62,305 nucleotides of DNA from a bacterium (lineage in GTDB: Bacteria; Sysuimicrobiota; Sysuimicrobiia; Sysuimicrobiales; Kaftiobacteriaceae). Location of the stretch: the NCBI GenBank assembly GCA_044868695.1, contig JBIOWP010000115.1, forward strand, positions 1 through 62,305. The letters are read 5' to 3'. Each line of letters begins with the position of its first letter. Position 1 is the stretch's first letter. The position numbers are program-made. Shown piece after piece: positions 54,471-62,305 of the stretch.

Positions 54471-57400
54471 GCTGGCGGCGATGGTCGATCTGATGAATCA
54501 GCGCCGACACGACCACCTGATCACGATCGAAGATCCGATTGAATTCGTGCACGACCCCAAGGGCTGCCTCATTAACCAGCGCGAGCTCGGGCCGCATACG
54601 CACTCGTTCGCTGCGGCCTTGCGAAGCGCGCTGCGGGAGGATCCTGACATCATCATGGTCGGCGAGATGCGCGACCTTGAGACGATCGGCAGCGCCCTCA
54701 CCGCGGCGGAGACCGGTCACCTCGTGTTGGCCACGCTTCACACAAACAGCGCGGCCCAGACGATCAACCGCATCATCGACGTCTTCCCGCCCCACCAGCA
54801 GGACCAGGTCCGCGTGCAGCTCTCCGAGGTGCTGCTGGGCGTGGCCGCCCAGACGCTGCTGCCGCGCGCGGACGGGAAGGGCCGGGTGGCCGCCGTTGAG
54901 ATGCTGGTGGCTACGCCCGCCGTTCGCAATCTTATCCGCGAGGGCAAGTCGTTTCAGATCCCCTCGCTGATCCAGACCGGTAGCAGGGACGGCATGCAGA
55001 GCCTGGACCTGAGCCTCAAGCTGCTGGCAAAGGCGGGGAAGATCGCGGTGGATGAGGCTCTCAAGCGGGCCGTGGACCGCCAGGCGCTGACCAGTCTCGA
55101 GAACGGCGCCCGTTCGGGTGCGATGGCGGCGCCCTAGCGCGACGACACGACCGAGCACGCGCGCGGCCTGGACAGGCGTTAGGACGGGCATAGCGAAGTG
55201 GTGAGCGCCTATGGCCGGCCCTGCGCCTGACGATGGTCATATGAACCGATTCATCGCCGCAGTTGTGCTGCTGGCCGCCCTGCTCTATGCGGCGCCTGCG
55301 GCCGGCGGATCGCTCCTCGCGACCGGACGTGAAGCACACCTGGCCGGCCGCCATCAAGAGGCCGCCCTCGCGCTGCGCGCGTACCTGGACCAGAATCCGC
55401 GCGATGCGAGCGCCTGGGTGTGGCTGGGGGCATCCTACTATCAACTCGGGTACGTTCGGGATGCGGCGTCGGCCTTCGAACACGCGATGGCGCTGCAGCC
55501 GTCGGGGGACATTGCACTGTGGCTGGGCGCCGCGTACGCTGCCTCCGGCCGCGAGGCCGATGCCCGGGCGGCATTCGTCCGGGCCACCCGCAGCCCCAAA
55601 CCCCAGACCGCGTTGCTCGCGCAGCAGTGGCTGCGCGCCGCCTCGGGCCGTGAGGTTCCCGTGCTGGACGGGGAGATGGTGCCGGCGGCCTATGCGCATG
55701 TCGTGCGCTGGTACAACCCGCGGCTGGATGCCTCGCAGGTCGACGCCATCATCCGCAGCGTCCTACATTACGGCACGGCCTACCGCATCGACCCGCGCCT
55801 CATCATGGCGCTCATCGCCATCGAATCCGGTTTCCGGATCCAGGTGCAATCCCCGGCAGGGGCGTACGGCCTCGGACAGCTGATGCCGGACACCTGGCGC
55901 GCCATGGGCGTGGACCCGGCGGATCCGGTGGGGAACATCTACGCGACCGCCCGCGTCCTGCGCGCTCACCTGGACCGGTTCGGCGGAAATCTGCAGCTGG
56001 CTCTGGCCGCGTACAACGCGGGACACAACGCCGTGACCCGGTACAACGGCATCCCCCCCTTCCGGGAGACGCAGTGGTATGTCTACAACGTGCTGCGGCT
56101 CTTCCGCCACCTCGCCGGCGGGTAACACTGTCGGGTCTGGCACGGAAGTTGCTTCAAATCTCCATCGAAGTGGTGGCGGATGGGCGGGCGCCGGTCATTT
56201 GTCTCTTGCAATTTGCCCGGCAGTTTGTTAGAGTTCTGAGTCAGTCCTCGCGAAAAGGCAAACCCAGGGCGACCTGGGGGCGCAAAGCTACGGGACCTGC
56301 CGGGGAACCACCGGAAGGTCGGCCGGGCTGCCGAACGAGGCGTTTTCTGTCCCTCCTCCGGCGGCCCAAGGGGAGGGATTTTCATGGGACGTAGAGGCAG
56401 CACGGTCCATCCAGTCCGGGAGGCTGCTCCCGCGGATGACGCCGCCACGCTGTTCCAGTCCTACCGCGCCACGCGCGGCCCTGAGCTCCATGCCCGCCTC
56501 ACGACGCTCTTCATGCCCCTCGTCCACCAGGTCGCACGCCGCTACGCCCGGTCGGGGATCCCGGTGGATGACCTTCATCAGATCGGCTATATCGGCCTCA
56601 TGCACGCGGTGACCAACTTTGATCCCGGCCGCAGCGTCAAGTTCGAAACGTATGCGCGGCACCTGATTGCGGGCGAGATCCGGCACTACCTGCGGGACCA
56701 GGGGACGACGGTCCGCCGGCCGCGGTGGCTGTACGAGATGGACCACCGGATCAGCCGCGCCGTGACCGAGCTCACGCAGCGGGTCGGCCGGCCGCCCACC
56801 ACCGCGGAGATCGCGCGCGCCACTCACGTCTCCGAGGACGAGGTCGCGGAGGTCCTGCAGGCGCGCGAGTCGCTGCGCCTCGTCTCACTCGACGAGGAGC
56901 GCGAAGGGGACGACGGCGCGCCGATCGCACAGCGGGACCGCATCACCACCAAGCACGCCGCTGGGTCGCTCCCCGTTGAGGACCGCGTGCTGATCAGCGA
57001 TGCCATCGAGCGGCTCTCAGGGCTGCAGCGCAAGGTGATCTATTACCTCTTCTATATGGACCTGACACAGACCGAAGCGGCTCGAAAGCTTGGGATTTCC
57101 CAGAAGCACGTGTCGCGCGTGATGCACGCCGCCCTCCGGCGGTTGCGGGAATCGCTCCACCCGGAGGCGGTGTGATGGCGCGCATTGAGGTGGGGGGAGG
57201 ACAGGAAGTGAAAACCGAGGAGCGAGTCGTGGCACCAGATCTCCCAATCTACCCGATCCGCACCGTCGCCAGGCTCACCGGCGTCGACGCGCGGCGGATC
57301 CGGGCGTGGGAGAGCCAGTATGGACTGCTCCGGCCCGCGCGTACGCGCGGGGGACATCGCCTGTTCAGTCAGCGGGACCTGGAGCTGATCCGGCGGATCA

Positions 57401-60400: not shown

Positions 60401-62305
60401 ATTCAAGCGTCGCTGACCGGCCACCTGGTCCTGTCGACCATCCACACCAACGACGCGCCCAGCGCGACGACCCGGCTGATCGACATGGGTGTGGAGCCAT
60501 TTTTGATCAGCTCCTCGGTGATCGGCGTCCTGGCGCAGCGCCTGGCGCGGACGATCTGTGCCCACTGCAAAGAGGCGTTCACCCCGCCCGTGGAAGCCCT
60601 GCACCGCCTTGGGCTCAAACCCGAGGAGGGCGAGGAGATCGTGTTCTACCGGGGCAAGGGGTGCGACCGCTGCAAGGGGTCAGGCTACAAGGGCCGGCTC
60701 GGTATCTTCGAACTGATGGTGATGAGCGAGGCTATCCGGGAACTCGTCCTGAAGGGGGCCTCGGCGGCCCAGATCCGCGACCAGGCCATCGCCGAGGGGA
60801 TGAAGACGCTCCCCGATGATGGTATCCTCAAGGTACTGGAAGGCGTCACCACGGTCGACGAGCTCCTGCGCGTGGTCTACGTCGAGCACTAGCCCGCCTG
60901 GGACGCCCCAGCCATCTCCCACGACATGCTCGTCCGGCCGGGGGAGTAGGGGGTTGCCCGTCGATGTCAGATGAGAGGTCCAGCCGTCACGCTGCGCCGG
61001 CCGGTGCAGGGCGCCGCCGGCGGCAGCTCGGGGACCTGCTGCTTGCCGAACAACTGATCACACCCGACCAGCTGAGCCGCGCCCTGGAGATCCACCGGGC
61101 GACCGGGGAGCGGTTGGGCCGCGTGCTCCTGGATATGGGGATCGTTGACCAGGAGCACATCGCGCGCCTGCTCAGCCAGCAGATCGGCATCGAGTTCGTG
61201 CACCTCACCGGCCAGCCGACGCCCGAGGAGATCCTCCAGATGCTGCCGGCCACTCATGCCAGCCGGCTTCAGGCGGTGCCCATTGCCAAGGACGATGGGG
61301 TGCTGACCGTGGCGATGGTGGATCCCCTCGATGTCGTCGCCATCGACGACATCCGGCGGTTGACCGGTCTGGATGTCAAAGTCGCCGTCACCACCGTCCG
61401 CGACTTCCAGTACGCGCTCAATCAATATCCCGCGCTCGACGCTACCGACGAACTGGTACGCGACCTCCCGCGCCCCCAGGTCATCGACCAGGAGATGTCC
61501 CTCGATCGCCTGCGGCGGCTCGCCGACGAGCAGCCGGTCGTACGGCTGGTGAACCGCCTGGTCGAGGAGGCTGTCCGCAAACGCGCCAGCGATATCCACG
61601 TCGAGCCGCAGGAAAAGCACATCCGCGTCCGCTACCGCATCGACGGCGTGCTGCTCACCCGGGGCTCGCTGCCCGACTATGTGCAGGCACAGGTGGTGTC
61701 CCGGGTCAAGATCATGGCAAACATGGACATCGCCGAGCGGCGCGTGCCGCAGGACGGCAGCTTCCAGACCCGGGTGGACGGGCGGGCGATCGACGTCCGC
61801 GTGTCCACGATCCCATCGTTCTACGGCGAGAAGGCCGTGCTGCGGCTGCTGGACAAGTCCGCGCCGATCTATGATCTGGACAAGCTGGGGCTGTCGGCGT
61901 CCAACATCGAGCGGCTGCGCCGGGTGATCCGCCGGCCTCAGGGCATCTTCCTGCTCACCGGACCCACCGGGAGCGGGAAGACCACGACGCTGTACGCGAT
62001 TCTCAACGAGCTGAACAGCGAGCAGGTCAATATCGTGACCGTGGAAGACCCGGTGGAGTACCAGATCGCGGGGATCACGCAGATGCAGGTGAACGTGCGG
62101 GCGGGGGTGACGTTTGCGTCGGCGCTGCGGCACTTCCTGCGGCAGGACCCCGACATCATCATGGTGGGGGAGGTGCGTGACCAGGAGACGGCGCGGATCG
62201 CGATCCAGGCGGCGCTGACGGGGCACCTGGTGCTGAGCACGCTGCACACCAACGACGCGCCGGGCGCGATCACGCGGCTGCTGGATATGGGGATCGAGCC
62301 GTACC

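What a model noticed while it worked through the whole genome (the two positions that open the first line are those of the whole stretch)
56138..60892. Sigma-54 promoter and c-di-GMP riboswitch in series before an alternative sigma factor and pilus operon
A consensus sigma-54 promoter (TGGCAC-N5-TTGCT) lies 93 nt before a c-di-GMP-I aptamer, whose 3' flank forms a hairpin + U run that buries the ribosome-binding site 5 nt before the start of a sigma-70-family (SigF/WhiG-like) gene; the operon goes on with a MerR regulator, two Roadblock/LC7 (MglB-like) genes and a TPR-MshEN-PilB pilus ATPase. Boldest reading: a three-layer switch in which an enhancer-binding protein (via sigma-54) and the second messenger c-di-GMP (via RNA) must both agree before a third sigma factor is made, which then drives type IV pilus/surface behaviour. 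New would be a riboswitch that directly gates a sigma factor gene in a sigma cascade, kept across a whole order.
Evidence so far: rna.tsv: RF01051 at C115:56247-56335 (63 bits). Promoter TGGCACGGAAGTTGCT ends at 56153; GUCCCUCC..GGGAGGGAUUUUCAUG before the start codon at 56384. Genes g02045-g02049; g02047 has no family row but is 29% identical to the Robl_LC7 gene g02048 (E 3e-5, call 170). Orthologues of the sigma gene (42-88% identical) in 14 of 16 sampled genomes of the order; of 12 loci scanned with Rfam at gathering cut-offs, 8 from at least four families carry a c-di-GMP-I or c-di-GMP-I-GGC aptamer just upstream (61-72 bits; call 167). The sigma-54 motif stands 92-154 nt before the aptamer in the 4 other genomes of the same family (3 exact, 1 with C for T at the first base) and in none of the 4 aptamer-bearing lo [...]
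(Added by a program. Inside this text positions count along the whole contig: contig position 1 is position 1 of the stretch shown here. "Call 12" and the like, gene names such as g00115 and contig names such as C1 are that model's own, and its searches are not shown. The text may have been shortened before it was handed on; [...] marks where a part breaks off. The agent that wrote the report below was given it as the finding of a first reader that could run no searches.)

Follow-up and report, generated by a model that had tools for sequence, protein, structure and literature searches.

The report
c-di-GMP off-switch on pilus sigma factor
In an uncultured soil bacterium, the gene for a sigma factor that probably turns on pilus genes has at least two promoters and an RNA switch that most likely shuts it off when the messenger c-di-GMP is high; the parts are all known, the wiring is unusual.

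Summary
The sigma-54 site (56138-56153) is kept in 20 of 20 orthologous loci of the family. The c-di-GMP-I aptamer (63 bits) has the c-di-GMP-type G20. The operon is as described. The organism belongs to CSP1-3/Sysuimicrobiota.

The reading needs three corrections. (1) It is not a strict 'sigma-54 AND c-di-GMP' gate: an overlooked housekeeping-type promoter (56206-56234; 9 of 20 loci) sits right before the aptamer, and two families keep aptamer plus sigma gene with no rpoN found. (2) The switch is probably OFF: a conserved strand (56359-56367) pairs with the aptamer's 3' end and frees the ribosome site; ligand locks the aptamer and lets the RBS hairpin form. (3) The sigma is SigB/SigF-like, not WhiG. 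A matching motif, GYCTAR-N14-GGGYA, precedes pilT-pilC and two pilin genes.

Likely logic: (sigma-54 OR housekeeping promoter) AND NOT c-di-GMP, then sigma, then type IV pili. The riboswitch-sigma link spans four families; the sigma-54 input is one family's addition. No RNA data. New variant of a known kind; interest 0.45.

The parts
56138..56153 (+). sigma-54 (-24/-12) promoter; predicted start near 56164
   Evidence: GG and TTGCT kept in 20 of 20 f1 orthologue loci, 17 of them matching YGGCAY-N5-TTGC. Start site inferred from spacing.
   Evidence: Same layout in 9 of 20 f1 loci (all 9 loci of genera g1, g2, g5, g6). It matches 8 of 12 consensus letters, so the stock scan, which needs 9, did not list it.
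56246..56340 (+). c-di-GMP-I aptamer; P1 = 56246-56250 : 56336-56340; G20-equivalent 56257, C92-equivalent 56331
   Evidence: P1+P2 are 94.6% paired over 12 loci with 3 pairs changed on both sides. G20 means c-di-GMP, A20 means cGAMP (PMC6140456 passages); numbering was set by eye.
56349..56367 (+). switching strand: anti-Shine-Dalgarno (56349-56358) plus anti-aptamer strand (56359-56367, 9 bp with 56325-56333)
56370..56383 (+). 3' arm of the RBS hairpin with GGAGG (56372-56376) and a short U run
   Evidence: Not called as an intrinsic terminator by the stock scan.
56384..57175 (+). group-3 sigma factor of SigB/SigF/SigG type, 263 aa
   Evidence: TIGR02980 211.6 bits (cut-off 234.35), FliA/WhiG 123.4. 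Best PDB hits 1l0o_C (E 9e-36) and 8x6g_H (E 1e-33); that these are SigF and SigB is recalled.
57172..57489 (+). short MerR-type HTH protein with no effector domain; start either overlapping the sigma stop or at GTG 57208
   Evidence: PF13411; 80-92% identical across f1 orthologue loci; atlas gives only MerR clusters.
57505..57882 (+). roadblock-like protein 1
   Evidence: No Pfam or NCBIfam hit; 29% identical to the next gene.
57932..58306 (+). Roadblock/LC7 (MglB-like) protein 2
   Evidence: PF03259 E 1e-15; MglB model far below its cut-off.
58421..60892 (+). TPR-MshEN-PilB pilus assembly ATPase
   Evidence: TIGR02538 above cut-off; NF053729 c-di-GMP motif 60.1 bits (cut-off 38). Both RLG arginines are replaced (SLG, HLG) here and in relatives.
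60964..62304 (+). second MshEN-PilB, cut by the contig end; continues on contig C145 into pilT, pilC and pilin genes
   Evidence: the same order on single contigs of relatives.
53966..55137 (+). upstream pilT with its own sigma-54-like site (TGGCAT-N5-TTGCT at 53966-53981)
55241..56125 (+). TPR-lytic transglycosylase gene; its stop lies 12 nt before the sigma-54 site, with no terminator found between
   Evidence: neighbour of the sigma gene in all 20 f1 orthologue loci.

Best explanation
The leader is a c-di-GMP OFF riboswitch on the first gene of a pilus-regulatory operon, fed by more than one promoter. Transcripts start at the sigma-54 promoter (on when the single NtrC-type activator is phosphorylated) or at a housekeeping-type promoter next to the aptamer. 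With little c-di-GMP, the strand 56359-56367 pairs with the aptamer's 3' end as it is made, takes up the anti-SD, and leaves the ribosome site open: sigma is made. With much c-di-GMP the aptamer is locked, the anti-SD pairs with the SD, and translation is blocked (in some relatives the same hairpin has a U tail and probably also ends transcription). The SigF-like sigma then most likely transcribes pilT-pilC and the pilin genes from GYCTAR-N14-GGGYA promoters. Logic: (sigma-54 OR housekeeping) AND NOT c-di-GMP. Shown: sequences, families, conservation. Inferred: promoter use, sign of the switch, sigma targets.
For: Aptamer directly before the gene in 26 of 30 loci (three f4 loci lack it, one starts at a contig edge) and in two more genomes. 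The anti-aptamer helix is 94% paired over 12 loci against 26-57% when slid. The two folds are equal in energy (-64.1 and -64.1 kcal/mol) and the anti-aptamer helix has probability 1.0 in transcripts ending at 56368 or 56380. It exceeds 0.8 in 19 of 26 loci, and 16 of 26 beat 40 shuffles at p<=0.05. Opening the RBS costs 4.9 kcal/mol with the aptamer free and 12.8 with it set aside; higher in 24 of 26 loci. Same strand topology as the OFF switch Cd1 (PMC9262584 passages). Sigma-54 site; strict sites number 3-9 in f1 genomes with rpoN and 0-3 in the ten published f3/f5 genomes without. Second promoter. Target motif: 10 genome sites at spacer 14 against 0-4 at eight other spacers, three of them before pilT, a minor pilin and pilA; 15 hits (13 distinct sites) against 0-2 in 41 loci of relatives; present before the pilT after pilB2 in 5 of 5 relatives tested.
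Against: No transcript or binding data. At equilibrium without ligand the full-length leader already favours the RBS hairpin (0.87 against 0.13), so the ON state depends on folding order. The whole leader folds no better than shuffles (z -0.30). The anti-aptamer helix shows no covariation beyond the shuffle control (207 of 500), and is weak or absent in 7 of 26 loci. The anti-SD:SD duplex beats shuffles in only 8 of 26 loci (p 0.086 for this genome). The measure has no shuffle control and leans towards its result. The -35 of the second promoter is missing in 11 of 20 f1 loci, where sigma-54 could be the main input. For the target motif, the reversed pattern is as frequent or more frequent in most genomes, a weight matrix gives only 9 against 1-6, the motif was first picked by eye, and the genome has 15 sigma-70 region-2 hits that could include another reader. 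Related genomes are not independent.
Confidence: 0.6

Rival explanations
1. One reading: sigma-54 is the only working promoter, so activator and c-di-GMP state are both required (as sigma-54 AND NOT c-di-GMP).
For: The sigma-54 site is the one promoter kept in 20 of 20 f1 loci. The second promoter is 8 of 12 consensus and lacks a -35 in 11 of 20 loci.
Against: TTGCAA-17-TGnTAGART is kept in 9 of 9 loci of four genera while the DNA around it varies. f3 and f5 loci have sigma-70-like boxes and no rpoN found.
Confidence: 0.17
2. The riboswitch is an ON switch, or works mainly as a transcription terminator for the whole operon rather than at the ribosome site.
For: Many loci have a U-rich tail after the hairpin, and in f5 the SD lies outside it. 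Both PilB proteins carry MshEN domains, which would suit high c-di-GMP. The C. difficile pilus riboswitch is ON (PMC6366702 passages).
Against: Ligand locks the strand that the anti-aptamer needs, which gives OFF by either route. Only four U follow the hairpin here and the stock scan calls no terminator. Genera g2 and g5 have no U tail.
Confidence: 0.13
3. The sigma-54 site is bound but seldom fired. It acts as a parked RNA polymerase that damps read-through from the upstream transglycosylase gene, and expression comes from the proximal promoter.
For: The site starts 12 nt after the upstream stop codon, leaving no intergenic room for an enhancer. No shared enhancer motif was found before 16 sigma-54 sites. 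The activator's loop reads GAFTSA, not GAFTGA.
Against: The activator keeps REC, AAA and HTH domains, the loop variant is shared by relatives, and the sites sit in promoter positions before a coherent gene set. Enhancers can lie within genes (recalled).
Confidence: 0.1

Closest known systems
Clostridioides difficile Cd1 (Cdi-1-3) class I c-di-GMP riboswitch before the flgB operon, which contains sigD (PMC6366702, PMC9262584; passages read)
   Same: Class I aptamer, OFF logic, the same strand exchange, and a sigma factor gene under its control.
   Different: There sigD lies inside a 23-kb flagellar operon and control is by termination. Here the sigma gene is first, control is predicted at its RBS, the output is pili (no flagellin found), and a sigma-54 promoter feeds the leader.
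Synechocystis group-3 SigF driving pilA1 from a TAGGC/GGTAA promoter (PMC2532724; abstract read)
   Same: SigB/F-type sigma (cyanobacterial SigF model is the second-best hit), pilin targets, and a GGTA-like downstream box.
   Different: A different upstream box (GYCTAR). The abstract names no riboswitch or sigma-54 input.
[quoted passage not shown]
   Same: High c-di-GMP shuts off a sigma factor that drives pilus genes.
   Different: That switch is a protein anti-sigma acting on WhiG. Here it is RNA acting on synthesis, the sigma is not WhiG, and the K57/G61/R62 contact residues read H/R/R by eye.
Sigma-54-to-alternative-sigma cascades (Borrelia RpoN-RpoS; polar flagellar RpoN-FliA; recalled, not looked up)
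   Same: An enhancer-dependent promoter makes a second sigma factor.
   Different: I recall no riboswitch between promoter and sigma gene in those systems.

Membership tests
c-di-GMP-I (GEMM-I) riboswitch | Covariance-model score above the Rfam cut-off | tested here: met
   63 bits against 35.
c-di-GMP-I (GEMM-I) riboswitch | G20 and C92 (c-di-GMP) rather than A20 (cGAMP class) | tested here: met
   G56257 and C56331, invariant in 12 aligned loci; rule from PMC6140456; numbering by eye.
c-di-GMP-I (GEMM-I) riboswitch | Expression platform mutually exclusive with the aptamer | tested here: met
   Computed only. No covariation support beyond shuffle.
c-di-GMP-I (GEMM-I) riboswitch | Ligand binding and ligand-dependent expression | not testable with these tools
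   Needs in-line probing and a reporter.
Sigma-54-dependent promoter | GG at -24 and GC at -12 with fixed spacing, conserved | tested here: met
Sigma-54-dependent promoter | RpoN and an enhancer-binding protein in the genome | tested here: met
   One of each, 3.5 kb apart on C53; the activator loop is GAFTSA.
Sigma-54-dependent promoter | Upstream activator sequence | tested here: inconclusive
   No dyad or convincing k-mer shared by 16 sites.
Sigma-54-dependent promoter | RpoN-dependent transcript start | not testable with these tools
   Needs 5'-end mapping.
SigB/SigF/SigG sigma subfamily | Regions 2, 3, 4 without region 1; best profile is SigBFG | tested here: met
SigB/SigF/SigG sigma subfamily | TIGR02980 curated cut-off | tested here: not met
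   211.6 against 234.35: SigF-like, not a filed member.
SigB/SigF/SigG sigma subfamily | Control by an RsbW/RsbV-type partner switch | tested here: inconclusive
   None in the operon. An RsbW-like gene (C91, below cut-offs) and an anti-anti-sigma (window 28612-28980) lie elsewhere.
FliA/WhiG sigma family | TIGR02479 cut-off | tested here: not met
   123.4 against 189.6.
MshEN c-di-GMP receptor | Tandem RLGxx(L/V/I)(L/V/I)xxG...LxxxLxxQ motifs | tested here: inconclusive
   Profile above cut-off; hydrophobic residues and both Gln kept, both Arg and the first xxG replaced; motif from PMC5013675.
MglA/MglB polarity module | Roadblock gene paired with an MglA GTPase | not tested
   No GTPase gene in the operon; I did not search the genome for MglA.

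The most novel reading that the evidence does not exclude
In family f1 one activator and sigma-54 run a feed-forward loop through RNA. Sigma-54 transcribes the SigF-like gene and, from another site on C53, an HD-GYP phosphodiesterase together with rpoN itself. The same signal would thus make the message and lower the c-di-GMP that vetoes it, so the riboswitch delays the pilus programme until the messenger has been cleared. Sigma-54 also appears to drive a second alternative sigma (FliA/WhiG type) and a second pilin, which would make it the top of a two-sigma, two-pilin hierarchy in a bacterium with no flagellin found.
Probability: 0.3. Interest if true: 0.65.

Novelty: new variant of a known kind. 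Interest (0 to 1): 0.45.

Why it matters
It would give a regulatory circuit for surface behaviour in CSP1-3/Sysuimicrobiota. The main texts of two papers on this phylum have no word-search hit for pili, sigma factors, riboswitches or c-di-GMP (supplements not seen). It shows the same outcome as the RsiG-WhiG switch (c-di-GMP silences a pilus sigma) reached through RNA. It also catches a circuit being rewired: the RNA gate is shared by four families, while promoters differ and the platform looks translational in some and terminating in others. The leader is under 250 nt, so it can be tested without culturing the organism.

Tried and rejected
cGAMP (GEMM-Ib) specificity: rejected, position 20 is G. 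WhiG identity: rejected. Flagellar role: no flagellin found in a 95% complete genome. Assembly artefact: rejected. Expression: no RNA holder listed, which says nothing either way. Enhancer search: nothing convincing. Autoregulation: no target-type motif in this leader; a near match (13.4 bits) lies before the transglycosylase gene and a full match before one f5 sigma gene, with no consistent pattern. A block resembling a sigma-H promoter (consensus recalled) matched a loose pattern in 9 of 11 loci of g3, g4 and g7, but it had no chance control, is absent here, and has one genome-wide hit: lead only. Generic SigB and cyanobacterial SigF patterns gave no clear set. The C53 GGDEF gene under sigma-54 has a degenerate active site, so I dropped it as a cyclase. 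Two Atribacterota loci with 40-41% identical sigma genes have no Rfam match. The tree groups the 20 f1 rows (92/89, below the starred level) and gives f3 and f4 supported clades, but deep branches are open, so I claim no order of gain or loss. Unpublished G033 was left out of my counts; tool tallies include it. Ten paper searches listed no paper on a sigma-54-driven riboswitch before a sigma gene; most hits were seen as listings only and subscription journals are largely missing.
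Full report
WHAT IS THERE. The window is contig C115 of a 2.6-Mb, 95% complete genome of 67% G+C. 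Close relatives of the sigma gene lie in records titled Ca. Calidihabitans tengchongensis, Bacillati bacterium ANGP1 and Armatimonadota; the first is a Sysuimicrobiota (CSP1-3) name (PMC11604079, passage). The six best-matching runs are soil metagenomes from two studies. A contig from run X1 spans 55900-58500 with six differences, none in the leader. The operon goes on with a second MshEN-PilB and, on C145, pilT, pilC and two pilins.

THE SIGMA-54 SITE. The genome has one rpoN and one full enhancer-binding protein, on C53. TGGCAC-N5-TTGC occurs 11 times against 1-3 at other spacings. Sites lie before a histidine kinase operon region, an HD-GYP protein followed by rpoN, a degenerate GGDEF gene followed by a FliA/WhiG-type sigma, a pilin, a putative surface-protein cluster, pilT in this window, and a tandem pair of c-di-GMP aptamers on C15. 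In 20 of 20 orthologous f1 loci the GG and TTGCT are intact at 118-180 nt from the aptamer core, while flanks vary. Strict sites number 3-9 in f1 genomes with rpoN and 0-3 in ten published f3/f5 genomes where rpoN was not found; the reversed control gives 0-7. I take the site as probably functional. No enhancer was found.

A SECOND PROMOTER. TTGCAA-17-TGT-TAGAGT lies at 56206-56234 and would start a transcript about 6 nt before helix P1. It is the same in all 9 loci of genera g1, g2, g5 and g6, and absent as a full pair in the 11 loci of g3, g4 and g7. The stock scan missed it at 8 of 12 letters. Three f5 loci and one f3 locus carry TTGCRS- or TTGACA-17-TAnnnT-like boxes 57-65 nt before the aptamer core. 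So sigma-54 is one input, not the only one, at least in this genome's branch.

REACH. Of 30 loci, 26 have the aptamer directly before the sigma gene: 20 f1 orthologues, one divergent f1 copy, one f7, three f5, one f3. Three f4 loci lack it and one f3 gene starts at a contig edge. Fifteen wider loci added one f5 and one f3 case, one f3 case with two pilT genes between aptamer and sigma, two more f4 negatives (0 of 5 in all), one f6 gene at a contig edge, and five distant copies with no aptamer upstream. rpoN was found in 17 of 21 other f1 genomes, 5 of 5 f4, 1 of 1 f7, 0 of 6 f3 and 0 of 4 published f5. The sigma-54 site was seen before this gene only in f1. The order sigma-MerR-roadblock-roadblock-PilB holds in f1 and one f3 locus; f4 and f5 have sigma plus one roadblock. 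Aptamers are common in the order: 40 of 41 genomes, 1-13 each (tally includes G033).

SIGN OF THE SWITCH. The aptamer has G at position 20 and C at 92, so c-di-GMP is the expected ligand. The loop of the RBS hairpin, 56359-56367, is complementary to the aptamer's 3' strand 56325-56333. The two states are exclusive and equal in computed energy; a transcript ending at 56368 or 56380 forms the anti-aptamer helix with probability 1.0, but the full-length RNA at equilibrium favours the RBS hairpin 0.87 to 0.13. Across 26 loci the anti-aptamer helix exceeds 0.8 in 19, and 16 beat shuffles at p<=0.05; it fails in L020, L030, L036 and L037 and is middling in three. A duplex test gave 13 of 26 for this helix and 8 of 26 for anti-SD:SD. 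In a 12-row alignment the helix is 94% paired, but without covariation beyond the shuffle control. Ligand should hold the aptamer strand, free the anti-SD and close the RBS: an OFF switch built like Cd1 (PMC9262584, passages). In f5 the SD lies outside the hairpin, which in one locus ends in a long U run, so termination is likelier there.

THE SIGMA AND ITS TARGETS. It is SigB/F-like, below the family cut-off, and not WhiG. It has 10 genome sites against 0-4 at other spacers, including pilT-pilC, a minor pilin and pilA, and 13 distinct sites in 41 loci of relatives against 0-2. The pilT site was not used to define the motif and is present here and in 5 of 5 relatives tested. Against: the reversed pattern is as common genome-wide and the matrix test is modest, 9 against 1-6. 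The evidence is position and spacing, not abundance. That this sigma reads the motif is inferred from family type and linkage. An RsbW-like and an anti-anti-sigma gene elsewhere could add protein-level control.

COMPARISON. Each layer has a precedent: Cd1 over sigD (PMC6366702, passages), RsiG-WhiG over Rubrobacter pili (PMC8325347, passages; PMC12871210, passages), SigF over pilA1, and RpoN-to-sigma cascades (recalled). Ten searches listed no paper with this stack; PMC12452182 and PMC12564702 (passages) showed none. Supplements were not read and might list riboswitch-gene pairs. This scan has noted a c-di-GMP riboswitch before a sigma gene several times on other DNA, including in this phylum; two look-ups for the sigma-54 input found nothing.

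VERDICT. New variant of a known kind; interest 0.45. The feed-forward reading through the sigma-54-driven phosphodiesterase is the boldest version left standing (probability 0.3).

Noticed in passing
G000:C53:79116-94081 (L007): Sigma-54 hub: histidine kinase, NtrC-type activator, REC-GAF-HD-GYP, rpoN, degenerate GAF-GGDEF, a FliA/WhiG sigma above its cut-off, roadblock, pilin and a putative surface-protein cluster, with six sigma-54-like sites. The core is kept in G010.
   Followed up: partly
L007:7587-8945: The only enhancer-binding protein has GAFTSA in place of GAFTGA; two of three relatives checked share it and one has GAFTNA.
   Followed up: partly
G000:C15:189-966 (L008): A second sigma-54 site followed by tandem c-di-GMP aptamers and a 137-aa protein with no family hit. 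The same pairing is seen in G016 and in f4 genome G024.
   Followed up: partly
G000:C15:1083-1520 and C28:10573-11001: Two paralogous 142-145-aa proteins (40% identical, no Pfam hit), each behind a sigma-54-like site.
   Followed up: no
L007:13039-14016: A FliA/WhiG-type sigma in a genome with no flagellin found; its targets are unknown.
   Followed up: no
window 58307-58410: Intergenic stretch of short tandem units between roadblock 2 and PilB; part of it recurs on six other contigs, like a small dispersed repeat.
   Followed up: partly
window 28612-28980 (-) and G000:C91 (L057:1222-1968): Stand-alone anti-anti-sigma (STAS) and an RsbW-like protein, unlinked to any SigB/F gene.
   Followed up: partly
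G000:C53:69622-72908 (L006): A fourth c-di-GMP aptamer before a 1049-aa protein with CBM6 and Ig-like domains.
   Followed up: no
L061 (G040:C113): Two tandem copies of the sigma gene flank the MerR gene behind one aptamer.
   Followed up: no
G000 C53:89567-90040 and C145:1461-1886: Two pilins 62% identical: one behind a sigma-54 site, one behind the SigF-type motif.
   Followed up: partly
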